NCBI GenBank assembly: GCA_002269645.1
Contig: NIVC01000049.1
Coordinates: forward strand, 186,001 to 250,000
Length of the DNA: 64,000 bases
Direction of reading: 5' to 3'
Source of the DNA: Macrostomum lignano
Taxonomy: Eukaryota
Shown here: piece after piece, positions 18,010 to 60,326 of the stretch
Layout of the letters: every line of letters starts with the position of its first letter
Numbering within the stretch: the stretch's first letter is position 1
Position numbers and translations under genes: made by a program
Notes under the pieces: generated by a model
What the model was told of the DNA's origin: nothing
The model's input: the letters and a program-made list of their open reading frames with translations, nothing else
Databases searched by the model: none

Positions 18010-18161
18010 TCAATGCTTGGGATTAAGTGTATGGATATGAATTGAAGTAACTGGAGTAACTGAAGTAACTAATGTCATTGTCATCCATTTTTAATATCAG
18101 AGACTACTGAGTAACCTACCGCGGTTAACTTAAATCTTCCAATGATAAGTTTCTGACAATT

Positions 18162-18170
18162 AAGTGGGAG
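18162..18170 (+). other. Copia polypurine tract (AAGTGGGAG)
   Basis: Directly precedes the 3' LTR. Confidence 0.75.
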
Positions 18171-18452
18171 TGTTGTTTATAGTATATAGCTCGTACTTTT
18201 AGTACTTTATATAGTAATTGTCAGATACATAATATTGATTAATATTGTTAATGCAAATAGCTGTGCGTATCCCTTTCTAGAAAGTTCAATAAATATCCAA
18301 TACAGTATCGTACCGATATATCTATGGTTGTTAGTTCATATCGCAAATGCGCTAATACTTTAAGTGCCCCCCAAACTGCTCAATTTTTCATCTTGTGTAT
18401 TTTTTGTTGAAACTGATAAAATATACTTAATTAAAAGAAGCAAACATCAACA

Positions 18453-19500: not shown

Positions 19501-19818
19501 ACCCACGCTAGTATGGACTGTTTCAAAACGTGAGCCTTGAGAATACTATCTGGGTGATTTTATCACTGCAGTAAACCAATTTGAGATATCCGTGGCGTCA
19601 GCTTATGTGAGTCGTTTTTCTAACTCATAGGTTGAGATAAGAATGCATGGTTGGTAGAAAAATAGTTACAGCACATAATACAGCATACTCGTACAAACCA
19701 AAATCTTTTTCTGCGCGATTTCTGGCTTGCTTGACACTTTTTAGTTTAGTTTAAAGTCAGTCCGTCATTGACCATGCTTAAATTTAATCGCACGTATTTT
19801 TGGTAGAGAATAAGAGAC

Positions 19819-20940
19819 ATGCTCGGCATTATAACATGGAAGCAAAAGCGTCTGCTAATTCTAATTGTCCTGACAGTCGTGTCAGTTAGAACAGCGTATT
19901 TCATTGCGCAAACGACTCGTACCTATAAATGTAAAGCACATGAGGTTGCTGCACGTACGCCGACGTCTCTACCGTTGCACGACGGGCTGCCTTGCGGCGA
20001 GCTGCCCTCCCGGTTCCCAGACTCCATCCCGCCGCTGGTGCACTGGACCAGCAAAGACGGTCGAGTGCCAGCCAAGCTGGTTCCCATTGTGCGCTCCTGG
20101 GCACGGCTGAGTAACGGTAGCCAAATCCAGGCCTGGCACTTCATGCACTGGGACGACAAGCAGATCTCCGAGCTCATCTCGAAGCACTATCCGTACCTTG
20201 TTCAAAGCTACCGCAAGCTGGTCAACGGGCTGGAGCGATCGGACATTGGCCGTCTGGTCGTGCTGCACCACGTCGGCGGTCTGTACGTCGACACGGATGT
20301 GGAGCTGCTTCGAGATCCGACACCGCTGCTGAGACCGTCGCAGCTTCAGGGAGCGGGGCTGACTCCGAACTTCGACTGTGAGTGAGCCGTGTGGAGTCAG
20401 GAGCCTACTGAGCACGCAGTCTTCACGTTCAACCTTCCGGCACTGATTTCGAATGCGGTGATGATGAGCCGAGCGAATCACAGCTTCCTGAGCTTCGTGC
20501 TGATGAACTGGCCGACATGGTTCGAGAAGAATTGGGCCAGTAACACCAAGAGAGTTCATAACGATGCGGTGCACGTCACGGGACCCAGAATGCTGCACAC
20601 ATTCTACGAGAAGTACACGGCACTGGAGCAGAGCGACCGACCTGTGGACTGGTGCGGCAACATGCTGGCCGAGGCAGACGCCTTCCAGCCCCTCTGGGAT
20701 GTGGTATGGATTCCAAAAATGCTGAAGAAACTTTGCCGGGCAAAGAATCTGGGGAGCCTTCCCAAGATGAAGCAGCAGCACTGCAAACGGCTCAATGCTA
20801 CCAACTTTGAGACAAAGAAAATACCGAACAGTTCTTTCACAGTTCACAAGTTCATGCACCTGAGCTACACTCACAAGATGTTAATGGGTAACTCCATGAC
20901 AATTTCCCGGATTCTACCGACTCTTACATGCAGACTGTAG
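19819..20940 (+). pseudogene. GT32 (OCH1/Sur1-like DXD) glycosyltransferase copy 1 with a single in-frame TGA at 20383-20385
   Basis: N-terminal signal anchor, IPPLVHWT, RSDIGRLVVLHHVGGLYVDTDV; both halves are in one frame; the paralogue has Ser (TCA) at this codon. Confidence 0.85.
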
Positions 20941-21276
20941 GATTACCATCGACATGAAAGGGCAAGGCAGTTTGTGCTTTTTTGTTCACCTGTAGAACAG
21001 TTTATATTTAATTAGCACAGTTTTTTTTGTTAAGTAATATGCAGCCTAATTGCAGTTGCAAGGATTAAATAAATCGCCCAATTCGTTACTCGTTATATTT
21101 CTCTTTTTACTGATTAACTTCTTATTTTCAATAAACATTACAATTTAACATGCATGAAACGATCGAACAAAAGCTTCTTTGCCATTCTATTTTTAGTAGC
21201 ACGCCAACTTTATTTCAATTTCCAAAATCATGAAACTGAAGAATACAAAAGGCCGGCTCCGTTGGGGTGGGGCGAT

Positions 21277-21935: not shown

Positions 21936-22847
<912 letters not shown>

Positions 22848-22850
22848 TCA

Positions 22851-22991
<141 letters not shown>

Positions 22992-23826
22992 TCAGGTTAG
23001 GCATGGCAGAGCGCGGGTTTGCCTGTACTCGGTGCAGCTGTTCCAGTGGAGCTGGCTGCTGATAGAGCCACCTGTTGATATGGCGGGTGACTTGCGACCT
23101 GGGAGTGGGTAGCCTCATCAGACGGTGGTTGCCGTCTGGGTTGCTGCCCTCCTTGGCGAAAGAGTCCGCGAGCTCGTTGCCCAGGATGTTGCTGTGACCG
23201 GGTGTCCAGATAATTCTAATCCTTGAGGCTGGCGCAATGGGTCTTCTAGGTGGTCTTCTTAGCCCTTCGAATGCTACTTTTGTAGGTGCCTAGAGCAGAT
23301 TGGTAGTCGGATATTCGAGCCGTTCGCTAGGCGTTGCAGCTGGAGGGGCGTTAGGGGGGTTTAGTGCGTATGGCGGTGTTCAGTGACTCAACGAGGGAGT
23401 TGCATCGGTGCTCGATGCTAGCGAGGTCCTCGACGGAGTCCGTTAGATGTTAAGCGAAAACGTTAGGAGTTTCAGCAGGTCTCTGCGGAAACCTGTCCAG
23501 TCGGCCTTCTTCAGGTTGCATGAGGCGGTTTCGGCCCACCATCTGTCGGAGCTGATGTTGTACTGAATATACGAGTGGCCGGAAAGCGAGGGGATATCAA
23601 CCCTAACCGGCCAGATGTGGACTTTGTTAAGGGCGTTATTAGAAACGATAAAGAGTTCAAAAACCTCACTTCGGCTGAAAACTAGCTCGTGTAAAAATAG
23701 ACTTGCTGCCCCCGTTTAAAGATGCGTAACGAGAAGTGAATCAAATCGATTAGTAATTCATCACGCCTGTTGGTTTCACACTAGACCAGGCAGTGTTATG
23801 GGCGTCGCATCTGACGATTAGCTTCC

Positions 23827-25877
23827 TGTCATGAAGGTTATGATGTAACCACGCTCTGTAACTTTTTCAAAAGTGCCTCCTATCGCCGTGCACCCCCTGC
23901 ACAGAGCTGTTGAGACTCGGCCAGGTCTTTCACCAGGCCTGGAGACTCCCGCTCTGCTGCACCCCCTGCTGCTTTGGCTCCGTCTCCCCTGCCGCCACAC
24001 TTACCTTTCCGGAGCTCCCCCTCCCTCTCTGTACCTCCCCCTCTACCCTATCTCTTCTGCTTTCCGCCCTATTCTTCGTGTACTTTTCCTGTCTCCCCTC
24101 TTTTTGCCCGTTTCCGCACTATTTTCCTGCGCTGTCCCCCCTTCTCTGCGTCTACTTACAGTATTTTGTGTGTTCACCGTCACCCTATCCCTTCTCAAAC
24201 TCCCAAACGGTGACGCAAGTCGTGTGACCCCTTCTTCCCCTCGATGACTCATCGATGACTCATCCTCTTGCGCAACCTTTTCTCATGCTATTGTTCTCCT
24301 CCCCAAATTTCTCATGCGACACCCACCCCACCTCCGATTCTATTGTTCTCGTTTTTTATTCTTTTGTTCTCTTTACCCCCCACGAATTATCAGATTTTCT
24401 CCGATTTTCTCTTTCTATTGTTCTCGTTTTCGCACCTAATTATCACCTTTTCTCCAATGTTTGCTTTTCTATTGTTCTCGATTCTCCCCAATTATCCCCG
24501 TTTTCCAATTCCTTTGTTCTCGACCCCAGCCCCATTGTTCTCAATGTTTGCTTGCGCAACACTTTCTCGACCTCCCGCTGCGCCAATTATCCCCCCCGCC
24601 TCACCTCCGGATTGCGCAATTCTCCCATTTCTCATGTTGCTATGCCGTTCTCATGCTTCTCATCATGACTCATTCTGACGTCATTCTGCCGGCAGCCAAT
24701 CAGAGAGAGGGAGTCATGGAAACGACCTTGGAGCGGCGGCTGGGATGGCTATATAAGGAAGCGATTTTCGGCATGAGAATCCTCAACTCTCGCTTCGGGC
24801 CGGTCTCCTCAGACTGTGTTCCTGCTCTTCCTACTGTGGACTTGCTGTCAGACCTTGATCTGACCTATTCGTCTATAGGACGAACCTCTGCCGGTCCGCG
24901 GTCTGATACCGCCAAGTTACCTCTGCTCCCCAAGTAAGCTCGCCTATCGGCCAGCGGTCTGATACCGCCCAGCATCATCAGCATCGCCTGATCTACATCA
25001 GCGCCTCGTCGCTTCAGCGCATCGCCGCTTCACCATCTGCCTGACTGCAGCCTACAGCCGTCCCCGGTCACTCCATCGCTCTCTCTCTCTCTGTGCAGCT
25101 GCCGGTAAGTTCCTGTTACTAATTTCTGCTTAATTGCCTCTGCTTATCCGGGGTTTGCCTATTTTCCATTGCTTAATTAGAAAGCTGAGCCAATTGTGAT
25201 ACCGTATCTTTTGCTGTACTTTTACTCAATAGTGAAGCCGCCTAATTGCCTGATTATTTTCCTAAGGGCCTAATTATTAACTATTAACTAACCTCATCAT
25301 TATTCACTCTTTCACCATCATTTCACTCATGGCTTGCTAAGCCTTTCTCCCGGGGTGGCGAAGCATAAGGAAGTTTGGGTAAGCTAATGGCCTCTTCCCG
25401 TGCAAAGCCCACCTGTGAGTGCGTGCTGCGGGGCCGTGTGTGCGTGCAGTAGAGTGATTAGCGAGTCTTGGCACAGAATGGCAGTAGGAAGGTTGCAACC
25501 CCATGCTAACACGTCCCTTCGCCCTGAGAAATCTAAACTATAGACAGTACATGTTCGCCTCATACTACTCTTAGTAATCAAAGTCGCAAGTCAGCCTCGC
25601 TCACAGCCACAAAGGATCCCCTGCTGAGAAATCCTCCAGATTGAGCCCAGAGTTCCCGATCATGCCCCAAGCAGAGTCCCTGTACTCGGCTGCATGTGTC
25701 TCCCCTGTTAGCCTAAATCCCCTGGTAACCAATCCAGGCGGGGCTCTAGCCTCGAGAGGTCTGGTAGTAAGATCCAGGTGCGCCAGCTCACATAGAGTGG
25801 TGGCAGCCACTCGGTCATACTATGACCGAGTGACCAACTATTGCACCTTGGCTACAGGTGGGGCCATGTGGGTCCTT
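23827..25877 (+). mobile_element. Probable LTR/5' region of an unclassified retroelement; continues at 34178-~34430 after the Polinton
   Basis: Begins with TG exactly where LINE homology stops; pyrimidine-rich U3-like region and promoter cluster; no recognisable coding domain. Confidence 0.45.
24666..24757 (+). promoter_or_regulatory. Pol II promoter-like cluster: AP-1 (TGACTCA), CRE (TGACGTCA), CCAAT and TATA (TATATAAG)
   Basis: Four consensus motifs in canonical order within about 90 bp (24666, 24676, 24696, 24750). Confidence 0.6.
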
Positions 25878-26406
25878 ACTACGTAATGTGCAGAAACTGC
25901 CGGGTTTTGGAGGTGAGGTGGGTGTCAGAGCCAATGCAAATTCAACGCCTATCTAAATACATTAGACCTCTTCTAATTGGTCCAGACCCTGTAAGTCATT
26001 ATGAGACATTTATGCATGTAACTCTCATGTAAATCTAATTATACATGTAATCAGTGTACATTCCTAATTGTGTCGTACAGAAGCGACGACCAGTACTATA
26101 TAGTACGCATAATTAGCGCTTCACCGTAGCAGTTGTACGCAGAAGCGCTCGCGCGCCCAGCCCCGCACAATGCAGCATTGGTGTACGCAGAATTAACTGT
26201 ACATATTAACTGTCCATATACTCAAAATTGGCAGAATTAACGCGCGCCCACCCACCCCATAACTGTTTATATACCAAACTTCGTGTACGCGCAGAATTGT
26301 AGCGCCCACTCATCCAAGAAAATATTATGTGACCCCACAAAATTGGCGGCCCCCCCCCGCACGCGCGTAGGCATGATGAGTCAGCCGCTGTAAATCGCTG
26401 CTGTCC
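25878..26406. repeat. Left terminal inverted repeat of the Polinton-like element
   Basis: Reverse complement of 33492-34177 from ACTACGTAAT to CGCTGCTGTCC. Confidence 0.95.
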
Positions 26407-26656
26407 GTACTGTTATATCCACTCCTTTCATACTTCACCCCTCTAGAATTCTGTCCTCCGTAGCCACTCCGGGGCAATTACGTCATCCCCAATCCCTCTC
26501 CCAGAGTCAAATAAGTTTTCAAAAGGCGTATATATATTAACACAAAAAGCCGGCCGAGCTTTGATACGTATACGATTTATTTAGCATACACAATTGGGTG
26601 ATAACCCAAAACGTTTGAATAATAGCGAGCAGGAGCATTTTGCAAACAGTTTACAA

Positions 26657-27080
26657 TCAAGTATGAGTAGGGGTCGCGAGTAGCATATCCTCATACGTTT
26701 TGACTAAACTTTTTGGATTAGTGGGGACAAGCTGCCTTGCAATATGAGACACTGTGCTGGCATCCCGTACATTGCGGAATAAAACAAGGTAGTTCGAATT
26801 GAGCGACTGAGTTCGGTGCTCCTTACCCTTTGCAAACAGGTTTTGCACAAGATACCAAAGTCGGAACCCCACGTGGGAGACTTTGCGCGTGAAAAAAAGT
26901 TGTAAAAGCGCCACTCTTTTTTATGGCATGCATTTGGTCGTCGACGACAAGTAGAATATTTGGTTCAGGGACATTTTGTTCAGGGTCAAATGTACACGAA
27001 CGAAAATTTACAGGGTACGGCAATTCAAACAGTTCAGGATCCGGATAGTGGCCAAACCAGTCTACGCGAATCGGCGTAGA
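26657..27080 (-). pseudogene. Packaging ATPase (A32/FtsK-like) remnant: Walker A region missing, frameshift in a T7 run near 26892-26898
   Basis: LLVVDD Walker B; LVQNLFAKGKEHRTQSLNSNYLVLFRNVRD...IARQ motifs; upstream frame starts STPIRVDWFGHY directly after a stop. Confidence 0.85.
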
Positions 27081-27424
27081 CTAAAAAAAAATGGTTTTTC
27101 AGCCACAAATATTACATGAGCCCCGCAGGTCACACTTAGCGGATGCTGTACAGGATGCCGGTTCATGGCCACCTCCACAGGGACATACTTTGCGATCCAC
27201 AACTTTAATAAATCTGGCACAGGATCGATACACAAGGGGTCAAAAAATGTCACGCTCTCATCGGCATGAAGACAAATCAAAGCCCAGTGAGTGCCTGGTA
27301 GATTGCCAGTGTCAAAGTTAATCACGTATGCAGCAGGATAAACAGGCTGCGGAATCCTGTCAACTGGTGTTACTCGAACAGGGACAGGTAGTATTAGACG
27401 TTCTAATATATCTAGACTATTCAT
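27062..27424 (-). CDS. Adenain-like cysteine protease, C-terminally shortened
   Basis: GTHW, FFD, VQ and CG catalytic motifs in the expected order. Confidence 0.88.
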   Translation of the reverse strand: MNSLDILERLILPVPVRVTPVDRIPQPVYPAAYVINFDTGNLPGTHWALICLHADESVTFFDPLCIDPVPDLLKLWIAKYVPVEVAMNRHPVQHPLSVTCGAHVIFVAEKPFFFSLRRFA

Positions 27425-27492
27425 ATCGGCATGAATATGGCCGTTATTCGGGAATAAAAAGATGTTTGTTTCTACACGTAGTCTAGAATAAC

Positions 27493-28755
27493 CTAACGAC
27501 CGCGAGTGATTTGCACAGTATTGTCAAAGTAGCCAAACACCAACACGTTGATTCCTGCAGCTAAAGCAGCAGAAAACTTTATTTGTAGCGTCAGATTCCC
27601 TCGCTCGCGAGGCATGCTATGCCCGCCCAGCTCCATGTCGGGCATGAGATTCCAGGCGAAGAAGCAGTAGCCAGCTCCATAGTCAGAATATGATACGTCA
27701 ATATCCAGGTCCCGATTCATCTTTCCTAGGCTTTTTAGCAGCATGGCATACTCGCGAGCATAGTTATGAACACCGAATCGAGGAGTAAACGGTTGTCCAC
27801 ACAGACTGACTCCGTCCTTATACAGAGCGACACTGTCTGCCCCAAACGGTTCAAAATTAAACGGGTTATGTGTAGCCACACCGTTGTATGCGCCGCTGTT
27901 CACCATGCCAACAACCACTAGTTTAGGCTTTTGTTCAGGAAATATATTATTGATTGACATGTCCCGAACACCGCCAGCCACTGAAGTATTGTGCACAACA
28001 AGTCGCTCAATCGGATAGATTGCATTCTGTTTGCCTAGTTGTTCTTCAATCTCCAATGCCAATTGGGGGTTTGCCTTGACGCGGCGCACATGTAGTTTGG
28101 CACTCTCGAGTACCAGCCGCGCATCAACCCCGTCTGCGTGGTTTTCCAGAACGAAGCCGGAATTGTGCATGGTCAGCGTAATTACCATATCAGTGTATGG
28201 CAGTAGCATTCGGTCGTTGGTAACAAAAAAGTCTAAACTCAGAGGTCCATAAAGGTGAAAGGTGCGTGAGTTTGCCGCCATCGCCTTGCGAGCTACAAAG
28301 CCAGGATTTCCAACCACAGCCATTTGACCTCCAGCGTCCTTTGCGTAGCCCATCATTCTCAGTTGATTGGTTTTTGAATCGTGTCCGTAATTCAAACACG
28401 TGCGAATATAGGCCTTGTAAGCGTGGTTGTTATTGCTCGACTCTACGTGTGTCCCGTTGATTGTCAACGTGACGTTTTTAAACATGCTTTCAAGGACGTA
28501 ATTGACCGGCGCAACATTCGAATCAGCAGCAAGATTTGTGCCATTAGACTGCTTAACGCGGGCCTTTATCTCGAGGTCAATGTCGTTAAGATCGATAAAC
28601 GTCTCACGACCGACAATCCTAAATTCGACCACGCTGGCATTTTCAACACTGGACACAGGGTGAACTTCTTCAGTGGTAGCGCTAATTGCAGCAATTTGGT
28701 GTGCGCGAGGAGCAAATAGCTCGAATTCCGACTTTGTACACAGGCACTCAGTCAT
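27493..28755 (-). CDS. Polinton major capsid protein (double jelly-roll), intact 420 aa
   Basis: CTKSEFELF...HPVSS...VEFRI...IDL N-terminus and PKLVVVGMV...NPFNF...Y..LL signature of Polinton MCP. Confidence 0.92.
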   Translation of the reverse strand: MTECLCTKSEFELFAPRAHQIAAISATTEEVHPVSSVENASVVEFRIVGRETFIDLNDIDLEIKARVKQSNGTNLAADSNVAPVNYVLESMFKNVTLTINGTHVESSNNNHAYKAYIRTCLNYGHDSKTNQLRMMGYAKDAGGQMAVVGNPGFVARKAMAANSRTFHLYGPLSLDFFVTNDRMLLPYTDMVITLTMHNSGFVLENHADGVDARLVLESAKLHVRRVKANPQLALEIEEQLGKQNAIYPIERLVVHNTSVAGGVRDMSINNIFPEQKPKLVVVGMVNSGAYNGVATHNPFNFEPFGADSVALYKDGVSLCGQPFTPRFGVHNYAREYAMLLKSLGKMNRDLDIDVSYSDYGAGYCFFAWNLMPDMELGGHSMPRERGNLTLQIKFSAALAAGINVLVFGYFDNTVQITRGR

Positions 28756-28798
28756 TTTTCTTTCAACAGCGGCTTAGTGTGATGCTCTAATAGACAGA

Positions 28799-29167
28799 TC
28801 AGTTATTGGCACGGGTTTTTTTATTTATAGAGTCGAAAATATCAGAATGCTGCAGTCTTTTTCTCGTTTTTTTGTTAGTCATCTTTCTTCGTCTTTGTCT
28901 GCCGCTACCTCGTTGTGCGACTGTGTCCTTGAAAGCATCTTTAGCTGCCTGGACAGAGTTACGCAATGTCGCTTCTTTCAAGTTCCCGCCTTGATCGAGT
29001 GTGTCGCTAACTGTTGTAGCTAGGGCTCGTGTTCCGTGGCGAAGAATATTTTTGCCAAAACTCTTTAAAATTGGCAGGGCAAATCGGGCAATGCTGCCAA
29101 ACAGGCCGTTGCCGCGCTGTGCACCGGAAAATACCGGTAAAGCTCCTCCGATCAAGATTGAAGGCAT
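28799..29167 (-). CDS. Conserved small Polinton virion protein with QRGxG protease-site motifs, amphipathic helix and basic tail
   Basis: QRGNGLFGSIARFALPILK and QRGSG...RRRK; lies between the mCP and MCP genes. Confidence 0.75.
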   Translation of the reverse strand: MPSILIGGALPVFSGAQRGNGLFGSIARFALPILKSFGKNILRHGTRALATTVSDTLDQGGNLKEATLRNSVQAAKDAFKDTVAQRGSGRQRRRKMTNKKTRKRLQHSDIFDSINKKTRANN

Positions 29168-29211
29168 ATTGTCGATCAGTTGCTACCTTTTTTTCGTGAA
29201 AACTTCTTTAT

Positions 29212-29540
29212 TTATAGCTTAATTTCACGAATGTTGATCGATAAAACAGTTTTGCCTCGAAGAATCCGATCCATTAACTTGCCCATATCGTCACAGATTT
29301 GCACCTCAATGGTTTTGAATGGGTGTTTCACCAACGGTAAGTAGGATGGATTGACAAACTCGTAGTACTCTCGTTCGCCGTATACCTTTTCATTCAAAGG
29401 AATTGCCCCAAGCAGGGGGACTTTGACGTCTCCAACAATGGCAGAGTCGACAATATTTGAATAGATGTACATAGTTTGTACACCATTTGTTAAATCGATT
29501 GGTCGTTTAGCGGTCTTTGGAGTTTCATTGAAAAATCTTT
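29212..29540 (-). pseudogene. Minor capsid (penton) protein, C-terminal half only
   Basis: MYIYSNIVDSAIVGDVKVPLL...YLP...IEVQICDDMG signature; N-terminal part replaced by integrase tail sequence. Confidence 0.85.
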
Positions 29541-30449
29541 GCGAAAGAAGTAGAATTGACCCTCGATTTGTTCTCCAGATAGGTCGGAAATCCGATAAAA
29601 ATGAGGTGGTCCCGGGCATACTTGAGACACAACGTAAACTTCTTCGCTGTACATATCGTATGCTTCCTTGTCAAAGGCTCGACGAGATTTTGAAATTCTG
29701 ACGAAGTCCCCTTCTTAGTAAACTGGTTCATCATATTCAGGATCCTTGTAGAGCTTTTCCCACAATTCTTTTTGGTTGTGCAGACCGACACTCGAAGGTT
29801 TCATTTCAATAGTAGAGTTTACTGTGTTGTTGTAACTTTTAACCAATATTGGTAAATAGTCGATCCAGCGCCACGTGTTTTTATGCTCAAAGTAGCGAGC
29901 TAAACGTTTTCGGAAAGTTCTAATTAACCTTTCAGCCATATTTGCCTTGTATACAGAGTTTGTACTGTACATTTTGATATTATGGGCTTTCAGTAAGTTC
30001 TGCATGCGATTGTTATAAAACTCGGTACCTCGATCAACGTGTAGATATAAAGGCTCAATAGGGAAGTCTTTGATCATACTTTCAAAAGCCTTTGGAGTGT
30101 CGCTTTTCAATTTTATTGGCTGGCAAAAAGCCAATTTACTAAGCACGTCAATTGCAACTAGAATATATCGATGACCATCATTCCATTGTTCGTATCGTGA
30201 CATGTCCATCAAATCCGCTTGCACAGTTTCCATGAAGCCTCCTGACATTACTTTTCCGGTTCGGAAATTTCTTTTGACCCTCTTGTGCCGGGTGTAGCTC
30301 GCTTGAGCTTTCAGCCATTCGTCGGTTTGGCGTCTCGTCAGGGAGGGGACCAGCCGTTTGGCCTCCTGATATACACGGGCAGCATTTGTAAAAGCGGCGT
30401 CCCCCTGTTCGTACACTCTCCGAAGAGCGGTTTTCACCCTCATTCGCAA
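29541..30449 (-). pseudogene. Retroviral-like (rve) integrase with an in-frame TAA at 29715-29717; frame continues EGDFVRISK...GEQIEGQFY
   Basis: QADLMDM, IDVLSK, HVDRGTEF and AERLIRT (D-D-E); C-terminal domain read manually past the stop. Confidence 0.92.
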
Positions 30450-30576
30450 CTAGATTCGATGCACAGCATGAGTAATTACACTTGAACTCCACAGACGGTT
30501 TGTCTGAGCAAAGCTTTGAAGTTACAGCTGCGGCACCCATGATCCAAAAACAGATTATAAATCATGAAAATGATTT

Positions 30577-31231
30577 CTATTTATAGTTTTTTAACGTCTC
30601 GTATTTTACTGCTGGTTTCTGCCGCCTCTTTGGTTCGCGAAGTTGGTATGAAGCATGCCTGTAGGCATCGCTGCCACGATCTTCATATTTTTTAATTTCA
30701 TTCAGGCCACTGGCTTGGTCTTTGTGGAAGTCGTTGTGGAAATCACTAGTTCCAATTGCTTGCTCGACTAAAAAATCGTCTCGATCCGGATCCGTGCCGA
30801 CTTCTTTTTTCACACTGATTTCTTCTTGTTGGCGTCGTCCTAGTGGAGCTTTTGCAATATCTGCCTCTTCAGCCAGGGCCCAAAAAGCGGTACTATATTT
30901 CGGGCTTGGGCGGTCGCGCCTTTCATTAGATTTAGTCTCCTTCAGTATATCGAAAATATTGCTTCCTGGCCAGGTTCTTCCATCAAATACAATTTCCCAC
31001 GACTTGTTGTACTCCAAATTTGGGTATCTTTCTGTCAGCATGTCCCAAATACGTTGTTGTCGTTCAGGAAAACGAATATTCTTCTTTTGCTTGATCTGAC
31101 TTAGTTTATTTTGGAGTTGAGTGTTGTATTTAATGAGTTTTTCATATTCTGTTTTAGATACAATTTCTCGGGGTGCGCCTTGACTTAGTCTATTAAATTC
31201 TTCTTCTGGTACAACAACGTATTTATCTCAT
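30577..31231 (-). CDS. Conserved Polinton accessory protein; start probably disrupted by a 1-nt insertion after ATG
   Basis: Frame open from DKYVVVPEEEF; WEIVFDGRTWPGSNIFDIL resembles the G..IPGSNI.DL motif of Polinton hypothetical proteins. Confidence 0.65.
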
Positions 31232-31232
31232 T

Positions 31233-31661
31233 TTAGCGACCGAGTAGTCCGCCAAACAGGCTTGATATTAGCGGTGCAGCAACAGATGCAAGGATGGGTA
31301 GAAAGCCACCGACTTGAGGATTCGAGAGAAGCATATTCTTCTTCCTATTTATAGACAATTTTGTGTCTGCCAATTCACGCAACGATCTTCTGTATCGCTT
31401 TAATCGCAGATACTGTTTCGGAGAAAGATCGATATTTCCCCGGAGCACGTTGTGACTCAATTCACAGAGACAATGAATCAGTTCCTTGCCTGCACCTCGA
31501 ATAATTGCCCGCCGAAGAGCGGGACGGGCTTTGGCGAGCTCTGCGAGCTCGCCGCGACAAGAACATAGTCTGGAGATTCCGTTTGTCCTTTTGTTTAGCA
31601 CAAAGATGTTGGTTGCAGTGCACCGCAATTTATGCACAATATATTTATAGACAACTTTCAT
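31233..31661 (-). CDS. Polinton conserved protein with an adenovirus pX-like C-terminus
   Basis: LIHCLCELSHNVLRGN core and QVGGFLPILASVAAPLISSLF tail; true start uncertain. Confidence 0.75.
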   Translation of the reverse strand: MKVVYKYIVHKLRCTATNIFVLNKRTNGISRLCSCRGELAELAKARPALRRAIIRGAGKELIHCLCELSHNVLRGNIDLSPKQYLRLKRYRRSLRELADTKLSINRKKNMLLSNPQVGGFLPILASVAAPLISSLFGGLLGR

Positions 31662-31730
31662 AGCAGTTTGTACGTACCTACAAATTCAGTACAGTAGTAA
31701 AACAGTAAAGTTACGCAACAGCTACATGGA

Positions 31731-32231
31731 TTAGACATGCAAAACGCTAGTCACATGATCGTACATTTGACAGAGCTCTTTAAAGTTTCGTATTCCAAGG
31801 AAAACAAGGCGGCCATTCTTTCCGCATAATAAACATTTAGCCTTGCGAAATGGAGACTTTATTACTATTCCATTGAAAACTTCGCACTCCCACTTCACCC
31901 AGCGGGACCCGGAGTATGCAATTTGGAAAAAATTTGGCCATCTGTCTACTTCAGCGCGGTAAGTACTAGTGGTAACAACAACAGAAATTGGTTTACATTG
32001 AGGAAAAAGACGCAAAACTTGGTTGACTGAGCGACAACCGAATACAATTGCAGACAAAGAACGCTGAAAAAAGTTGATTGTACATCTTCCTATTCGCAAA
32101 TTGAAAAGATTCGCAAAAATTCGCAAATTCGCTCTTGGTCTGCAAAATGTCCGTGCGCTCGCCCAGTCCAAGTCAGGCATGCGGCTCCATTTCGCGCAAA
32201 ACACTCGGTTCACACACTCGACGTTCTGCAA
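31731..32231 (-). CDS. Unknown Cys-containing ORF inside the Polinton
   Basis: 166-aa ORF co-oriented with the viral genes; no family recognised. Confidence 0.4.
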   Translation of the reverse strand: MQNVECVNRVFCAKWSRMPDLDWASARTFCRPRANLRIFANLFNLRIGRCTINFFQRSLSAIVFGCRSVNQVLRLFPQCKPISVVVTTSTYRAEVDRWPNFFQIAYSGSRWVKWECEVFNGIVIKSPFRKAKCLLCGKNGRLVFLGIRNFKELCQMYDHVTSVLHV

Positions 32232-32334
32232 GTAGATTTTTCGGCAGTTTTTACTTCCTATCCTTCTTGAGGGCTTTCGACCGCTTCTTTATTGGTTCGT
32301 TGGCTGCTACTACTTTCGATTGATGCTGTCGCTT

Positions 32335-32969
32335 TCAGGCCTGATTTTTAGGCACCTTTGGCTGCTTCTCCTTGACAAGCTTTGGTGGTTTCTTTGCTTT
32401 CTTGCTTACTTTCTTGGTGCCTACCTTGATTTTTGGAGGTGGCGTCCAATAGCAACGATCGAATGCCTGTTTGGCTTCTTCGACAAACTGTAGCTGTTGA
32501 ATTTTTGGCATTGCGGTCAAAACAGCGTCTCGAATCACGGCCGTATCGAGCGTGAACAGAATCCTGTAGTAGCCGCTCTTGTTTTTGTAATCCTCTGATC
32601 TACAGGCAGTCCGTTTTGGTCGTAAATTTTAAAGTCGTGAGCCAACCCAAACGCTGCACTGTCACCTCCAAACGCTGGGTTGTAGCCCAGCAGAGCTAGA
32701 CTTTCGCTGGAAAGGTGCTCCGCCACAGTGTTGAAAGTGTAGGGTATGCAGCTCTCAATGTGTTTTTGTGCAATGATGATGAATTCGCGACCTTCGTTGT
32801 CAGTACGCACGCCCTTGACGATCAAAACAGGGACCGCATTGGTCAAGTAGAGAGGTCCCTGTTCGTCATATTCAATGTCAAACGTTTCAACCCCGTTGAA
32901 GCTCGGACCTCGCGGTTTGAGCGCCAGCAGCTCTCGCTTGACGCAGTTGAAGTCTTGCACTGTCTCCAT
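32335..32969 (-). CDS. Unknown protein, probably one gene split by a frameshift near 32540, with a Lys-rich C-terminus
   Basis: Two abutting ORFs (144 and 67 aa); ATG at 32969 has a TATA upstream. Confidence 0.5.
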
Positions 32970-33030
32970 GTCTCTTGTCTGTTTAGAAAAATTTGCAGGT
33001 ACGGGCGCTTGCAGATGCTCTGGGCTGGTG

Positions 33031-33038
33031 CTTATATA
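33031..33038 (-). promoter_or_regulatory. TATA box (TATATAAG) upstream of the first Polinton ORF
   Basis: About 60 nt upstream of the ATG at 32969. Confidence 0.4.
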
Positions 33039-33491
33039 CCCGAGAGTCTCAATATTTTTTTGTTTTAATTACACGATAACGAGCTTTTTACGGTGTCGTC
33101 GTTATCAGGAATTCCGGAAAAAATGAACCTTTTGTTCCTATTTTCGGGTGCTGGCGTTGGAGGTGTGCTGAAATCCTTGCTCCAAGTTGATGGTAGTTCA
33201 AGCTTTGGCGGCCTGATCCTCGTGCTTTGGCAACCAAAAAATTTCTTGTCAAAAACTGCGTTGTCTAGACGATTGGGGTGTTAATTGAGCTTGGTGAATT
33301 TAGAGAACCGCCGAGAATCCAAATTTTCTTTATTTATAGTTTGCTGTCTGAACAAAAATGACCTGGCATTTACAAGAATATTTTCAGACCTTGATGACGT
33401 GTCTGGCTATAAAGTTAGCATTGTGTCTCGACCGGGTTGTTGCGTAACCCTGCTGCAGGTAGCTATAGTGAGCCGCGCAGGGCAAAGGGGT

Positions 33492-34177
33492 GGACAGCAG
33501 CGATTTACAGCGGCTGACTCATCATGCCTCCGCGCGCGCGGGGGGCCGCCAATTAATTGTGAGGGGCGACAGAATATTTTCTTGGATGGGTGGGCGCTAC
33601 AATTCTGCGTGTACACAAATTTTGGGTATGATCGAACAGTTATGGGGTGGGCGGGCGCTACAATTCTGCGTGTACACAAATTTTGGGTATGATCGAACAG
33701 TTATGGGGTGGGCGGGCGCTACAATTCTGCGCGTACACCAATTTTGGGTGTATATATGGACAGTAAATATGGACAAGTAATAATATGGACAATTATGGGG
33801 TGGGTGGACGCCCTAATTCTGCGTACACCAATTTTAGGTATATGGACAGTTATGGGTGGGTGGGTACGCTACACCAATGCTGCATTGTGCGGGGCTGGGC
33901 GCGCGCGCGCTTCTGCGTACAACTGCTACGGTGAAGCGCTAATTATGCGTACTATATTGTACTGGTCGTCGCTTCTATACGACACAATTAGGAATGTACA
34001 CTGATTACATGTACAATTAGATTTACATGAGAGTTACATGCATAAATGTCTCATAATGACTTACAGGGTCTGGACCAATTAGAAGAGGTCTAATGTATTT
34101 AGATAGGCGTTGAATTTGCATTGGCTCTGACACCCACCTCACCTCCAAAACCCGGCAGTTTCTGCACATTACGTAGT
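33492..34177. repeat. Right terminal inverted repeat with extra internal tandem repeats
   Basis: Complementary to the left TIR; the roughly 59-bp unit at 33590-33745 is duplicated. Confidence 0.95.
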
Positions 34178-36715
34178 GTCCTTGGCCCTCTGGTCACGAA
34201 GCGCTACCAAAGCTATCAATCATGTGGGCGGGACAGTCTGGTGCTGGAGGTCCGTCAGGTCATTGCCCGGTCATAGGCAGCCTACGGTCATTGCCCCCTC
34301 TAGTCACGCGTTCGTCTCTCAACGGAGCGGACAGGCGACAAGGGCGGTTACATCAGTTACAGATAACCGCCAGCTCCTGAAGAAGGGTGGAGTGACGTCT
34401 CCTTGGATATCCAGGTAGGTTGAAGCAAATGTTAGTTAAAAAACTGAGAATGTACCACATATCTTTAAAAAAAACATGGGCACGATCGTGACCGGTAGGT
34501 CGTTTTGGCGAGAGCGATGGCCCTTGGAGTGTTGTTCATGCAATGGTAAAGAACCTCGTAGCCTGGTTTCAGGCAGACCGGCTTTCATTTGCGGGTATAC
34601 GGTTTCTGAGGTAGATGTCAACATCCATGTTGCCGAAGGTGCTGGATAGGTTGCAGGATGCTGCGAGAGCGTGATGCAGATAATGTGCAGGTTGACTGGT
34701 TGGTTCGCCGGAGGCGGATCATTTATTTGGTTGCTAGTGGCAGTGTCATCATTGGGCTGGCCAGCAGGGTTCCCTCAGAGCTCCGCAGAGTTTGGCGCGG
34801 GGTTGGGAACGGCATTGCTCGTCTCCAGAGCTATCCGAGCGCACGAACTCACCTCGGCGTCGATCGCCGGCCGGGTGACGCCTTGGCAGCAGGTGGAAGA
34901 CGATCGTCCACGCCCCAATATAGACGCGGCAAAATCGCTCTTCTTCAGAGAATCTTCCCACTGCGCGGAGAAACCTATGAATAGGGTTTTGCCCGGAGCG
35001 TCTTTCGCCGGAACCTCCTTGAAAGCCCGGATTCCGTACTGAGGTAGGTCAGGATTTTTGCTGAGGAGCCGAGCACAGATCATCTCGATGTTCCTCGAGC
35101 CGGAGTAAAAGGCTCGGTAGCGCCGGCGATCGGGTGCGCTCCACGACACGTCGGCGATCGGGTGCGTCGGAGGGCCGTCGCACGAGTTGATGGACACGAT
35201 CGGTTCACCAGCGCGAGTTCGAGTTGAACCTCAGCTTTGAAGGGCGTCGAGGGCGTCGTTTTCCCAGAGGGACATCGATCACTCCGATCGTTGCTTTTAT
35301 CTCGGCGATGGTCAGCGTGCCGCTAGCCGCGCGTACGCTGTGGGGGCTGGATAGGATATACTCGTACCTCAGACAGCTCCGAGGATAAGCAGCAAAGGAT
35401 AAAACAGTTGCCGTTTTACCCTAGGATTGCTCCAAGGCGAGGCTCCGACGGAGGATTCTGCAAGATCAGGTGGCAGGAGGCCTGTTGCAGGTTTGGGACA
35501 CAGCCATCAGGTCGGGTTGACAGCCGATGCGCTCAAGCCCTCCTCAGCAGGAGCGGCCCTCTGGAACCAGTGTGGCACCAGTTGCAACTATAGGCTGTCG
35601 ATGAATAGTTGGCCCTTAGTCAGCAGCCAACTACTTAGCAGCCACCTGCCCTGCAAAAAGCAGCAGGGGGGTCCGTCCTTCACCAGCAGGAGGCCAGGTC
35701 TAAGCCAGTCTTTGTTGATCAAAAACAGCAATTTTATCAATAGAGGCCATAATTTTAGCAGCTAAACTGGCGTAAATTGGCGTTGGTAAGTGGTGTGTTG
35801 GCGTCAGTAAAAAATGAAGTATTTTCGTAGCTGCCGAAGAGAAGATGGTTTTGGAAACAGACATTGTATTTTGAGCGCTCGTCTTTGAAAGACTCTGGCT
35901 CGGTGCCGAATGCCCCGAGCTCTGGGTTCATAGAGGAAGCGGATTTAAGAGGGCAGGTTGTCTCAGAGGAAGTGGTAATCGCACATTCCAGAGAGGAGGG
36001 GAGATCTTTCACGTTATGGCAGTCAGAGATGTCAGTGGGGTGGGGAGGTCAAGATCCCAAAGGCCGTAGCTCAGCTTCGAGCTTTACTCCCACATCCCCA
36101 TTCCTACAGATCCCCACTCCCACATCCCCACTCCTGTAGATCCCCTACCCTATAGATCCTCACTCCTTCAGATCCCCTATCCCAAATCCACACTCACAGA
36201 ATCCCGATGAAGTGTATATATAGTCTGGTTCCTTAAAGTTCCCTTGATCATATCTATTCAATGCTTACCGAACATCTCTGACCGTCTCTCTCGCTTAAGA
36301 ATTAGTGGCTCAGCCAGGATTTGTTTAGAATGCCAGAAGCATTAGAAGCGGGGGCTTTTGTTGGAGTTGGAGATGAAGGAAGATGAGGAAGATGAGAAAC
36401 TTATTTGTCTATGGCAATACGTACAGTGTATTCGCGAGTCGCTAAGCTGCGAAATCAAAAATATGCTTAAGCGGTGCATAAGGTCTCAGCAAAACCGGAG
36501 TATTACACCATTTTACCTCCTATTTTTAACAAAGTCTTGTTCAAAAGAAACAAGCAGAACTTCAATTCAAACACTAAGAAATATCAGCCATTGCGGAAGT
36601 TCAAATCAAACAAAGTCCTTTTCTATTGAAGTTCTGCTTGTTTCTTTTGAACAGGACTTTGTTCAATATGGGAGGTAAAATGGTGTTATCGTCTGGCCTA
36701 ATCACTGAACAAACA

Positions 36716-37250
36716 ACAACTTTAGCAGCAGGGGCTTTAGCAGCAAAGGCTTTAGCACCAGAGGCTTTAGCACCAGAGGCTTTAGCACCAGAGGCGCCAG
36801 CACCAGAGGCTTTAGCACCAGAGGCTTTAGCACCAGAGGCTTTAGCACCAGAGGCGCCAGCACCAGAGGCGCCAGCACCAGAGGCGCCAGCACCAGAGGC
36901 GCCAGCACCAGAGGCGCCAGCACCAGAGGCGCCAGCACCAGAGGCGCCAGCACCAGAGGCGCCAGCACCAGAGGCGCCAGCACCAGAGGCGCCAGCACCA
37001 GAGGCGCCAGCACCAGAGGCGCCAGCACCAGAGGCGCCAGCACCAGAGGCGCCAGCACCAGAGGCGCCAGCACCAGAGGCGCCAGCACCAGAGGCGCCAG
37101 CACCAGAGGCGCCAGCACCAGAGGCGCCAGCACCAGAGGCGCCAGCACCAGAGGCGCCAGCACCAGAGGCGCCAGCACCAGAGGCGCCAGCACCAGAGGC
37201 GCCAGCACCTGAGGCGCCAGCACCAGAGGCGCCAGTACCAGAGACGCCAA
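36716..37250. repeat. 15-bp minisatellite (GCACCAGAGGCGCCA), about 35 copies
   Basis: Directly visible; produces APEAP, GASGA and PLVLA repeat ORFs. Confidence 0.95.
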
Positions 37251-37764
37251 ATCTATACTGCAAAGAAGCGCCATATAATGCAGCCACCCGATCGTTGGCG
37301 CCCCAGCGCAACCGGGGGTGCTCACACCTACTCATAAATACAGAATCCCTCATTTTCTCTACTTGCAGTGCAGAGGCCGCATAGCCAACCATAAGCATTC
37401 TCACAATTACAGATAAGCGTTGTGTTCAGGCGGAGTATAACTACGGTACATTTAACCAGATTACTTTTAATGCACATCAATTGACTAAAACAACTGCCTA
37501 GCGACGTACTCGAAAAGTATAATTTTGTAGTTACTTTCAGCTCGAAGGAATCTGATTTTAATAAAGGTAAGCTTATAATCAATATACACATCTAAAATCA
37601 TATATACGAGTATAAAGGTATTTTCGACAAAATTCCCAAGGCTTACGAATAAGTTTATGACGCTAAAAACAGTTAGCATTTTTGTATTTGACTGTCTCTG
37701 TGTCGAGAGTACAGTGAGGTGTCTAGAGGGTACACTGGCACTGGCATTCAATGACATGCAGTGC

Positions 37765-39904
37765 TACAGGCCTTCAAAAGGCACTGCTACAGGCTTTCAT
37801 AAGGCACTGCAACAGGCCTTCAAAAGTCACTGCTACAGGCTTTCATAAGGCACTGCAACAGGCCTTCAAAAGTCACTGCTACAGGCTTTCATAAGGCACT
37901 GCAACAGGCTTTCATAAGGCACTGCAACAGGCCTTCAAAAGGCACTGCAACAGGCCTTCAAAAGGCACTGCAACAGGCTTTCATAAGGCACTGCAACAGG
38001 CATTCAAAAGGCACTGCTACAGGCTTTCATAAGGCACTGCAACAGGCTTTCAAAAGGCACTGCTACAGGCTTTCATAAGGCACTGCAACAGGCCTTCAAA
38101 AGGCACTGCTACAGGCTTTCATAAGGCACTGCAACAGGCTTTCATAAGGCACTGCAACAGGCCTTCAAAAGGCACTGCTACAGGCTTTCATAAGGCACTG
38201 CAACAGGCCTTCAAAAGTCACTGCTACAGGCTTTCATAAGGCACTGCAACAGGCTTTCATAAGGCACTGCAACAGGCCTTCAAAAGGCACTGCAACAGGC
38301 TTTCATAAGGCACTGCAACAGGCATTCAAAAGGCACTGCTACAGGCTTTCATAAGGCACTGCAACAGGCTTTCATAAGGCACTGCAACAGGCCTTCAAAA
38401 GGCACTGCAACAGGCCTTCAAAAGGCACTGCAACAGGCTTTCATAAGGCACTGCAACAGGCATTCAAAAGGCACTGCTACAGGCTTTCATAAGGCACTGC
38501 AACAGGCCTTCAAAAGGCACTGCTACAGGCTTTCATAAGGCACTGCAACAGGCTTTCATAAGGCACTGCAACAGGCCTTCAAAAGGCACTGCAACAGGCT
38601 TTCATAAGGCACTGCAACAGGCCTTCAAAAGGCACTGCTACAGGCTTTCATAAGGCACTGCAACAGGCTTTCATAAGGCACTGCTACAGGCCTTCAAAAG
38701 GCACTGCAACAGGCTTTCATAAGGCACTGCAACAGGCTTTCATAAGGCACTGCAACAGGCCTTCAAAAGGCACTGCAACAGGCCTTCAAAAGGCACTGCA
38801 ACAGGCTTTCATAAGGCACTGCAACAGGCCTTCAAAAGGCACTGCAACAGGCATTCAAAAGGCACTGCTACAGGCTTTCATAAGGCACTGCAACAGGCCT
38901 TCAAAAGGCACTGCTACAGGCTTTCATAAGGCACTGCAACAGGCTTTCATAAGGCACTGCAACAGGCATTCAAAAGGCACTGCTACAGGCTTTCATAAGG
39001 CACTGCAACAGGCTTTCATAAGGCACTGCAACAGGCATTTAAAAGGCACTGCAACAGGCTTTCATAAGGCCCTGCAACAGGCTTTCATAAGGCACTGCAA
39101 CAGGCCTTCAAAAGGTACTGCAACAGGCTTTCATAAGGCACTGCAACAGGCCTTCAAAAGGCACTGCTACAGGCTTTCATAAGGCACTGCAACAGGCCTT
39201 CAAAAGGCACTGCAACAGGCATTCAAAAGGCACTGCTACAGGCTTTCATAAGGCACTGCAACAGGCCTTCAAAAGGCACTGCTACAGGCTTTCATAAGGC
39301 ACTGCAACAGGCTTTCATAAGGCACTGCAACAGGCCTTCAAAAGGCACTGCTACAGGCTTTCATAAGGCACTGCAACAGGCTTTCATAAGGCACTGCAAC
39401 AGGCATTCAAAAGGCACTGCAACAGGCTTTCATAAGGCACTGCAACAGGCTTTCATAAGGCACTGCAACAGGCCTTCAAAAGGTACTGCAACAGGCTTTC
39501 ATAAGGCACTGCAACAGGCCTTCAAAAGGCACTGCTACAGGCTTTCATAAGGCACTGCAACAGGCTTTCATAAGGCGCTGCTACAGGCTTTCATAAGGCA
39601 CTACAACAGGCTTTCATAAGGCACTGCAACAGGCCTTCAAAAGGCACTGCTACAGGCTTTCATAAGGCACTGCAACAGGCTTTCATAAGGCACTGCTACA
39701 GGCCTTCAAAAGGCACTGCTACAGGCTTTCATAAGGCACTACAACAGGCTTTCATAAGGCACTGCAACAGGCCTTCAAAAGGCACTGCTACAGGCTTTCA
39801 TAAGGCACTGCAACAGACCTTCAAAAGGCACTGCTACAGGCTTTCATAAGGCACTGCTACAGGCCTTCATAAGGCACTGCAACAGGCTTTCATAAGGCAC
39901 TGCT
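37765..39904. repeat. 23-bp minisatellite (AAGGCACTGCAACAGGCTTTCAT and variants), about 90 copies
   Basis: Directly visible; variation is concentrated at a few positions. Confidence 0.97.
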
Positions 39905-40057
39905 AGCATTATCAGATAACCAAAGAAAGGCCGCGTATTTTACATCTGTAGTTTGGCTACACATCAGTAAGGTGTACACATTATCAATAAAACATTTGCA
40001 ACGGCCAAAATATCAAATTTTCAGACTGCACCGCGTGAGTTACCCATCGAATTCACC

Positions 40058-41167
40058 ATGCCATTGATAAGACTGACAAAGCCAGTGCTGTTCCTGCTGG
40101 CGCTACTGCTGCTGGCCCTGGGCACGCATCGAAAGATCTTCAGCGATCGCGGCCATTCTGTCATTTCTCCAAGCCGCAGCGCCATGAAAACAAAGGACAC
40201 GGTGCCAGCGACTGTTGACAACCCGCTACTGTCGGGTGCCTGCGGCGCCTACAGTGAGCTCCGCAGCGTCAACTTTCTGCACAAGTCCATCAGCGAGAGC
40301 ATCTGCGAAGGCGTCGCCGCCTACACCATCGTGGACAGCGCGTTTCCGCTTTGCCGACTCAAGCAGCACCTGCCGCTGGTCCTCACCGAAGGCGTCAGAG
40401 CTGCAAGCGTGCAGACCTTCATCAGAAGCCCCCTCACCCAGAGAAACGTCTCCAGCTTCGTCTACTCGAGTCCCGACTTCATCTCGACCAGCATCCGCAA
40501 AGAGCACATCTTCGAGGAGAGGAACGTCCGTAACATGCAGCGAATCATTCAGAAGCTGGCCGCCAAGTCGCCCGTCACCTTTGTGGACGTCGGCTCGAAC
40601 ATCGGCGTGTTCACCCTGTCGATGCTCGATCTCGGAGTGCCCGTCATCGCGCTGGATGCGAACATCCGCAACTTGATTCGAATCAAGCTGTCAGCCGAGG
40701 CGGTTGAGCCGCCTCACAAGCTGCACCTGCTGTGGAACTTCGTCAGCAGGCAGGTGTCGCTCATGTACCTGAACTTTCCGAAGGATTGCAACATCGGCGG
40801 CGCTACCAAGTTCGGCAGGGCCGTCGTCGACACGATCCCAGTTATGTCGTCGACCGCGGACTCCATCGTGCCGCTTATCGACACCAAGCTGGTCGTGTTG
40901 AAGGTCGACATCGAAGGAGGCGAAGGCGAGTTCTTCAAGAGCGCGAAGAAGCTGTTCGAAAGCTTCACAATTCCCGTGGTGCACATGGAGTGGCTGAAGA
41001 AGCACATGAGCGAGGAGGAGCGCCAGTTCATGATCAGCTTCTTCGCTGGGAGGCGCTACAGCCCGAGGACCATGAAAGATCTAACCAAGTTGATAAACAT
41101 CAGCCACACAGGGTATCAGGGAGACGACCTCATTTGGGTGCACAAGAACTTTGAAGGTGGAATATGA
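40058..41167 (+). CDS. FkbM-family (Methyltransf_21) SAM-dependent methyltransferase with an N-terminal signal anchor, intronless
   Basis: TFVDVGSNIGVFTL motif I, IALDAN, LKVDIEGGE and VHMEW motifs; hydrophobic N-terminus. Confidence 0.88.
   Translation: MPLIRLTKPVLFLLALLLLALGTHRKIFSDRGHSVISPSRSAMKTKDTVPATVDNPLLSGACGAYSELRSVNFLHKSISESICEGVAAYTIVDSAFPLCRLKQHLPLVLTEGVRAASVQTFIRSPLTQRNVSSFVYSSPDFISTSIRKEHIFEERNVRNMQRIIQKLAAKSPVTFVDVGSNIGVFTLSMLDLGVPVIALDANIRNLIRIKLSAEAVEPPHKLHLLWNFVSRQVSLMYLNFPKDCNIGGATKFGRAVVDTIPVMSSTADSIVPLIDTKLVVLKVDIEGGEGEFFKSAKKLFESFTIPVVHMEWLKKHMSEEERQFMISFFAGRRYSPRTMKDLTKLINISHTGYQGDDLIWVHKNFEGGI

Positions 41168-55222: not shown

Positions 55223-60326
<5,104 letters not shown>

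What the first reader, a model, noticed from the sequence alone, without database searches (positions are those of the whole stretch)
25878..34177. Polymerase-less Polinton/Maverick-like virus with intact ends
Seen: 8.3 kb, perfect 6-bp TSD, long TIRs, and all genes on one strand: two orphan ORFs, a pX-like gene, a conserved hypothetical, integrase, mCP, a QRGxG protein, MCP, protease and ATPase. There is no pPolB or space for one. Known: Polintons are usually about 15-20 kb and defined by pPolB plus integrase. Inference: either a deletion derivative or a satellite/defective-interfering lineage replicated in trans while keeping its own capsid module. Because TIRs and TSD are intact, the element may have integrated in this short form.
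Basis: partly seen in the sequence, partly recalled or inferred. Interest (0 to 1): 0.8.

Follow-up and report, generated by a model that had tools for sequence, protein, structure and literature searches.

The report
Broken Polinton virus with TBP-like gene
This is a virus-like jumping element in an animal genome that lacks a DNA polymerase and has lost parts of its capsid and packaging genes, so it is a common kind of relic, though it carries an unusual TATA-binding-protein-like gene and a matching TATA box in front of most of its genes.

Summary
The outline is confirmed: 8,300 bp, GTCCTT target duplication, terminal inverted repeats (304 of 308 outer bases match), ten minus-strand genes, and no room for pPolB.

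The claim that it keeps its own capsid module is not supported. Comparison with relatives shows two further internal deletions. One removes the integrase chromodomain and about the first 135 residues of the penton. The other removes the protease end and the first 45 ATPase residues, including Walker A. There are also five in-frame stops and at least three frameshifts.

It is a defective Beta-class Polinton/Maverick. Such relics are the norm (96% of vertebrate loci), and mobile polB-less Polintons have been described in butterflies. Point damage roughly fits the TIR clock. Whether the deletions came before insertion could not be tested without the genome.

The new point is that the second "orphan" is a compact TATA-binding-protein homologue (profile hits to solved TBPs, E about 1e-5; a 64%-identical relative passes the Pfam TBP cut-off). 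CTATAAATA occurs six times in the element, all on the coding strand, and nowhere else in the window. A viral TBP acting on these boxes is plausible but untested.

The parts
25872..25877 (.). left target-site duplication GTCCTT
25878..26412 (+). left TIR; outer 308 nt match the right arm at 304 positions, inner part imperfect
26529..26538 (+). inward-facing TATA-like motif with no gene behind it; possibly the promoter of a lost plus-strand module (inference)
   Evidence: motif only
26577..27074 (-). packaging ATPase remnant: residues 46-209 of the relatives, no Walker A, frameshifts near 26897 and 26686
   Evidence: pieces match P0019 at 54 of 59, 61 of 68 and 24 of 34 residues
27075..27100 (-). 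deletion junction 1 (protease end joined to the ATPase interior), at a run of 9 T
   Evidence: only 53 nt lie between the protease Cys codon and ATPase residue 46
27062..27424 (-). adenain-like cysteine protease; His, Asp and Cys motifs present, C-terminus cut
   Evidence: weak, E 0.99; L001, E 0.001; family name from motif and position
27472..28755 (-). major capsid protein (F54H12.2-like); premature stop at 27493-27495, giving 420 of 427 residues
28799..29167 (-). QRGxG protein, PW/cupiennin-like; open frame of 122 aa
   Evidence: matches the gene between mCP and MCP in L001-L004, E down to 7e-9; PW name from position
29212..29559 (-). minor capsid (penton) remnant: last ~110 residues only
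   Evidence: residues 136-245 of a 252-aa penton in L001; published PX alignment
29545..29559 (-). deletion junction 2 (integrase joined to the penton interior); at least ~580 nt of coding sequence missing
29546..30443 (-). rve integrase: core open for 242 aa, in-frame stop at 29715-29717, chromodomain absent
   Evidence: residues 26-291 of the 349-aa L003 integrase; Chromo at 305-345 in L003
30577..31234 (-). conserved hypothetical (PM-like by position); 216 open codons, apparently broken at its start
   Evidence: (weak local match to the same gene in L002 and L003; 0 and 1 of 300 shuffles reach the score)
31233..31661 (-). pX-like (PZ-like) gene; start uncertain, possibly broken
   Evidence: 39% identity to the L002 gene, E 3e-21
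31731..32180 (-). TBP-like gene ('orphan 2'); open frame of 149 aa, relatives 125-128 aa
32140..32969 (-). conserved gene of unknown function ('orphan 1'); frameshift near 32600, stops at 32337, 32253 and 32175
28822..33339 (-). six CTATAAATA boxes (28822-30, 29209-17, 30578-86, 31346-54, 31642-50, 33331-39); five lie 50-143 nt upstream of the likely start codon of a gene
33487..34177 (-). right TIR with 2.7 copies of a 61-bp repeat in its inner part
34178..34183 (.). right target-site duplication GTCCTT

Best explanation
An endogenous Polinton/Maverick with a Beta-class virion module that is now a relic. Shown: integrase-type insertion marks (6-bp TSD, TIRs), no replicase gene, two internal deletions that cut integrase/penton and protease/ATPase, and scattered stops and frameshifts. 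Inferred: a parent of roughly 13-20 kb integrated by its rve integrase; a pPolB module was deleted, most simply from the 164-nt gap beside the left TIR; the point damage built up after insertion. The copy cannot replicate, package or integrate itself, and only its ends could still be used by a helper. The parent lineage carried a compact TBP-like gene and TATA-box promoters.
For: Deletions are defined against real relatives: 209-aa ATPases with Walker A, a 349-aa integrase with chromodomain and a 252-aa penton. The gene order pX-PM-INT-mCP-PW-MCP matches L002 and L003 and the vertebrate int-mcp-pw-Mcp-pro module. Four TIR mismatches predict 1.3-1.7 stops in 5,892 coding nt; 5 are seen, but 3 cluster in the low-complexity tail of orphan 1 and only 2 lie elsewhere. 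MCP shows no excess of private changes (9 of 164 against 4-11 for three relatives). 96% of 3,511 vertebrate Maverick loci are degraded. There is no second copy in the window.
Against: Counting all 5 stops, the excess over the TIR clock is borderline (P 0.03-0.07). The ATPase remnant has 12 private changes in 129 columns against 0-5 for four relatives, hinting that it decayed longer than MCP. Three large deletions within about 0.65% divergence is many (inference). No direct parent sequence was seen, so the lost pPolB and its position are inferred.
Confidence: 0.6

Rival explanations
1. Non-autonomous short form. The deletions arose during replication of a helper-supported genome, and the 8.3-kb molecule was copied, possibly packaged, and integrated in trans through its TIRs. 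The broken capsid genes are passengers.
For: Near-perfect outer TIRs beside three large losses; ATPase decay above MCP decay (different reference sets, so weak); borderline excess of stops. Precedent: polB-less Polintons that stayed mobile in Pieris, and Repbase families named N1/1N1 in the table (reading N as non-autonomous is recalled).
Against: Only one copy in 64 kb (weak, a small sample). Point damage outside orphan 1 fits the TIR clock. No helper was seen.
Confidence: 0.3
2. Satellite lineage that replicates in trans but makes its own virion.
For: MCP is 420 of 427 residues long and 78-80% identical to three relatives; PW is open.
Against: The penton lacks ~135 N-terminal residues, the ATPase lacks Walker A, the protease is cut, and the integrase is stopped and lacks its chromodomain.
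Confidence: 0.03
3. Assembly error: collapses or read errors produced the junctions and frameshifts.
For: Junction 1 lies at a 9-base homopolymer and one ATPase frameshift at a 7-base run; runs of 7 or more occur in 0.3% of background windows.
Against: Five of the seven break points examined have runs of 4 or fewer. In-frame stops are substitutions. Collapse needs repeats, and the interior has none.
Confidence: 0.07

Closest known systems
Beta-class adintovirus / vertebrate-type Maverick virion module (Starrett 2021, PMC8502044; Barreat and Katzourakis 2021, PMC8097293)
   Same: int-penton-PW/cupiennin-hexon-adenain order, pX-bearing gene, TIRs, 6-bp TSD; an AC-starting end motif has precedent in one fish family.
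   Different: No pPolB; 8.3 kb against 12.7-24.6 kb for intact vertebrate elements; ATPase lies after the protease on the capsid strand, whereas it lies before the pX gene in L002; carries a TBP-like gene.
polB-less mobile Polintons of Pieris mannii (Pannagram preprint, 10.1101/2025.02.07.637071)
   Same: TIR-flanked, lack polB, keep structural genes.
   Different: Those show multi-copy mobility and carry LINE or LTR cargo. Here there is no cargo, mobility is untested, and the structural genes are cut.
Degraded Maverick fossils and Repbase N-type Polinton families (PMC8097293; Table S1 of PMC4028283)
   Same: Stops, frameshifts and missing core genes.
   Different: This copy keeps young TIRs and a perfect TSD.
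Helicase- or primase-substituted Maverick-Polintons, Tlr1 and PLVs (10.64898/2026.06.19.733378; PMC11161782)
   Same: No pPolB.
   Different: They carry another replicase; this element has none and no space for one.
Viral TBP mimics such as KSHV ORF24 (PMC12529657, abstract only) and TBP-labelled genes in MELD virus maps (PMC8502044, figure legend)
   Same: A virus-borne TBP fold; ORF24 recognises viral late promoters.
   Different: Here a stand-alone protein of ~125 aa in an animal Polinton, shorter than the ~180-aa TBP core; function untested.

Membership tests
Polinton/Maverick (autonomous) | protein-primed DNA polymerase B | tested here: not met
   largest gaps 517 and 164 nt; no polymerase family in six frames
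Polinton/Maverick (autonomous) | rve integrase with C-terminal chromodomain | tested here: not met
   rve core present; in-frame stop, and the chromodomain of the reference is absent
Polinton/Maverick (lineage) | TIRs of 100-1500 bp and a 5-8 bp TSD | tested here: met
   ranges
Polinton/Maverick (lineage) | Polinton-type major capsid protein | tested here: met
   15 relatives over 96-100% of its length; related genes sit beside integrase and penton in L001-L004. The jelly-roll fold itself was not modelled and a PDB sequence search found nothing
Polinton/Maverick (virion-competent) | whole penton, packaging ATPase and maturation protease | tested here: not met
Beta-class virion module | cupiennin/PW gene between penton and hexon, and a pX-bearing gene | tested here: met
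   no gasdermin-like domain seen or tested
Non-autonomous Polinton family | several insertions sharing the same deletions | not testable with these tools
Satellite / defective-interfering virus | a co-resident helper with the same TIRs | not testable with these tools
   no genome or reads available
TBP family (orphan 2) | sequence match to the TBP repeat | tested here: met
   relative P0023: 24.6 bits against a Pfam cut-off of 22.9; 35 of 38 PDB hits of profile A3 are TBP chains, best E 1.1e-5. The window protein alone scores only E ~1 and has no Pfam hit
TBP family (orphan 2) | two-repeat saddle fold | tested here: inconclusive
   model pLDDT 42.5; fold searches uninformative; only one repeat matches by HMM
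TBP family (orphan 2) | binds TATA DNA | not testable with these tools
   needs a binding assay

The most novel reading that the evidence does not exclude
This Polinton lineage encodes its own compact TBP, which recognises the CTATAAATA box placed before its virion and integrase genes. That would be a virus-made basal transcription factor in an animal Polinton, working like the herpesvirus late-gene TBP mimics. In addition, the 8.3-kb form may be a non-autonomous family spread in trans by a full-length helper.
Probability: 0.25. Interest if true: 0.65.

Novelty: new variant of a known kind. Interest (0 to 1): 0.33.

Why it matters
As a polymerase-less Polinton it matters little: such relics are common, and mobile polB-less forms are in print. 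It does show that intact ends say nothing about an intact capsid module.

The 'variant' rating rests on the TBP-like gene and the six identical TATA boxes, not on the missing polymerase. How Polintons switch on their virion genes is poorly known (my knowledge; one search says a clear picture of their expression is lacking). A candidate factor with a candidate site makes that question testable.

Tried and rejected
Orphan 1 as an OB-fold single-strand binding protein (an impression by eye) found no support: model pLDDT 34.9, and no hit in the Atlas (42), PDB, PHROGs or NCBIfam, or Pfam (0 families for P0016). It stays unassigned.

Atlas search of orphan 2: best score 0.79, not usable. Fold searches with the poor TBP-like model gave nothing clear; an archaeal TBP ranked 9th at E 0.52, and no TBP was among the 50 rows.

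Orphan 1 and orphan 2 are unrelated. The TIR has no unusual fold (z -0.94). The ATPase has no match among phages. GTDB held no close relative (0 of 36 candidates). A wider scan gave 4 distant loci from 54 candidates; no pPolB or TBP-like gene was found in them in the parts examined.

The L001 protease is itself broken, so the length of the missing protease tail was not measured.

Reading the CTATAAATA boxes as stop codon plus poly(A) signal was rejected: only 3 of 6 continue as AATAAA. As a control against a special TBP link, distant loci also have TATAAA shortly before MCP in 3 of 4 cases, so host TBP could serve these promoters.

Host species was not determined. A flatworm (Macrostomum) is a recalled impression only, and two paper searches gave nothing relevant. 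Cluster membership and source names of the close relatives stayed unchecked, as did the viral and metagenome contig collections, so the gene order and pPolB content of the closest relatives were not seen.
Full report
Outline. The element spans 25878-34177 (8,300 bp) between two copies of GTCCTT (a chance 6-mer match is about 2 in 10,000). The outer 308 nt of the two ends differ at 4 positions. An imperfect inner part extends the repeat to about 26412 and 33487 and holds 2.7 copies of a 61-bp unit on the right. The ends read ACTACG...CGTAGT. Vertebrate Mavericks mostly start with AG, but an AC-starting family is described (PMC8097293, parts 1-2 of 8 read). The host is an animal: flanking frames match FG-GAP (integrin-like) and TMEM106. 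The element sits in a ~2.2-kb insert that itself splits an old LINE copy.

No polymerase. Ten genes fill the minus strand, and the largest gaps are 517 and 164 nt, against about 3 kb for a pPolB (recalled). A six-frame Pfam scan with stops read as X found rve and one sub-threshold DUF. Because Pfam also misses MCP and ATPase here, space is the stronger argument. There is no substitute replicase of the kind described for some Maverick-Polintons (10.64898/2026.06.19.733378, section 5).

The capsid module is not intact. (1) ATPase: four relatives of 209 aa, 80-92% identical over the query piece, carry Walker A near their start. The window matches only from residue 46, in three frames. Only 53 nt separate the protease's catalytic Cys codon from that point, so a deletion joined the two genes. 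(2) Integrase and penton: a 349-aa integrase from locus L003 matches over residues 26-291, and its chromodomain (305-345) has no counterpart. A 252-aa penton from L001 matches only over 136-245, and the two matches meet at 29545-29559. The published PX alignment puts the surviving motif at about the same place (PMC4028283, supplement 3, part 1). At least ~580 coding nt are missing. The integrase also has an in-frame stop at 29715-29717. (3) MCP is 78-80% identical to three 427-aa relatives but stops 7 codons early. (4) Orphan 1 has three relatives of 229-271 aa and carries a frameshift and three stops. Of the ten genes, five are shown broken against whole relatives, the protease by its junction, two more are doubtful at their starts, and two (PW and the TBP-like gene) are open. 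L001-L004 are titled as bacterial MAG contigs; I take them to be Polinton DNA from animal hosts (inference).

Family. The order pX-like, PM-like, integrase, penton, PW, MCP is the same in L002 and L003. It matches the int-mcp-pw-Mcp-pro module of vertebrate Mavericks and the labels of the Beta adintovirus maps (PMC8502044, supplement text). The ATPase lies after the protease here but before the pX gene in L002. P0003 (MCP) and P0020 (ATPase) list the same longest contig length of 3,422 bp, which hints that the order seen here is natural in close relatives (inference). By the defining test it is not an autonomous Polinton; by descent it is a defective one.

Timing. Four TIR mismatches give about 0.65% change per arm, which predicts 1.3-1.7 stops in 5,892 coding nt. 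Five are seen (P 0.03-0.07), three of them in the Lys-rich tail of orphan 1. MCP has 9 private changes in 164 conserved columns against 4-11 for relatives, and 27 in 315 against 13-21 without the outgroup. The ATPase remnant has 12 in 129 against 0-5 (different reference sets). So most point damage fits decay after insertion, with a weak hint that the ATPase died earlier. The deletions cannot be dated from one copy, and the window holds no second copy. Two of seven break points lie at long homopolymers, so some read error is possible.

Prior art. 96% of 3,511 vertebrate Maverick loci are degraded, and 134 are intact at 12.7-24.6 kb. Most nematode Mavericks are incomplete or pseudogenised (10.1101/2022.07.12.499685, passages). 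Two groups of polB-less Polintons that stayed mobile are described in insects (10.1101/2025.02.07.637071, passages). Elements under 10 kb were dropped as incomplete in PMC4028283 (passages), whose Table S1 lists N-type families. A polymerase-less Polinton with intact ends is therefore a known kind.

The TBP-like gene. All 6 PDB hits of orphan 2 at E up to 10 were TBP chains (best E ~1). A search of 1.84 billion representatives gave 2 relatives, of 125 aa (64%) and 128 aa (43%). The first passes the Pfam TBP cut-off and the second scores below it. All 7 NCBIfam hits of the first are TBP models, far below their cut-offs. A three-sequence profile hits solved TBPs at E down to 1.1e-5 (35 of 38 hits). 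Only the C-terminal repeat matches by HMM; by eye the N-terminal repeat is shortened. The fold model was poor and gave no support.

The TATA boxes. TATAAATA occurs 7 times in the window, 6 of them in the element and all on its coding strand (0 of 100 shuffles reach 7). Shuffles of the element alone give a mean of 0.16 and a maximum of 2 in 1,000. All six read CTATAAATA, which occurs 0 times in the other 55.7 kb. Five lie 50-143 nt before the likely start of a gene and one has no ATG within 260 nt. Against a special link, TATAAA also precedes MCP in 3 of 4 distant loci where no TBP-like gene was found, so host TBP may suffice.

Is the TBP gene in print? I found no report of a TBP gene in an animal Polinton in four library searches (read as listings) or in term look-ups in six further papers or supplements (passages). 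TBP does appear as a gene label in figure legends for MELD viruses in the section on non-animal datasets (PMC8502044 and 10.1101/697771). I could not see which genomes carry it: figures are not held, that supplement was cut short, and bioRxiv supplements are closed. Subscription papers were not searched. The functional analogy is KSHV ORF24 (PMC12529657, abstract only). Passages of 10.1101/2024.01.15.575659 added nothing used here; 10.1101/2023.08.22.554363 gave the TIR and TSD ranges.

Verdict. A real, young, multiply deleted Polinton relic. The self-packaging satellite reading fails for this copy (0.03). Decay in place is the most likely history (0.6), spread of the short form in trans is open (0.3), and assembly error is minor (0.07). 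The feature worth following is the TBP-like gene with its six TATA boxes. Interest 0.33.

Noticed in passing
window 22789-23840 and 34357-35689 (minus) against 55166-60326 (plus): An old LINE copy is split by a ~10.5-kb block: the Polinton nested in a ~2.2-kb insert that begins TGTAAC and ends GTTACA (LTR-like). The copy at 56493-60326 has an open 1,277-aa endonuclease-RT-RNase H frame.
   Followed up: partly
window 1532-5079 (+): Two long overlapping frames (651 and 550 aa) that look like an intronless integrin alpha; FG-GAP match.
   Followed up: partly
window 13666-18453: Copia-type LTR retrotransposon with LTRs 98.6% identical and one stop in pol near 17139.
   Followed up: partly
window 19818-21075 and 45285-46528: Inverted duplicate (95%) of an intronless DXD glycosyltransferase gene; the left copy has a stop. 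An intronless FkbM-type methyltransferase lies at 39971-41167. Possibly horizontally acquired; not tested.
   Followed up: no
window 37758-39903, 14-815, 36754-37249, 47776-48433: Tandem arrays with units of 23 bp (two different arrays), 15 bp and 36 bp.
   Followed up: no
window 33065-33339 (-): The sixth CTATAAATA box is followed by a 71-codon open stretch with no ATG; possibly the remnant of a further gene.
   Followed up: partly
L001, L002, L003, L004: Four GTDB bacterial genome contigs hold animal-type Polinton genes, probably host contamination of symbiont MAGs.
   Followed up: partly
P0016 (relative of window 32140-32969): Its longest contig is 8,848 bp, close to the size of this element; this may be chance or a short relative.
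   Followed up: no
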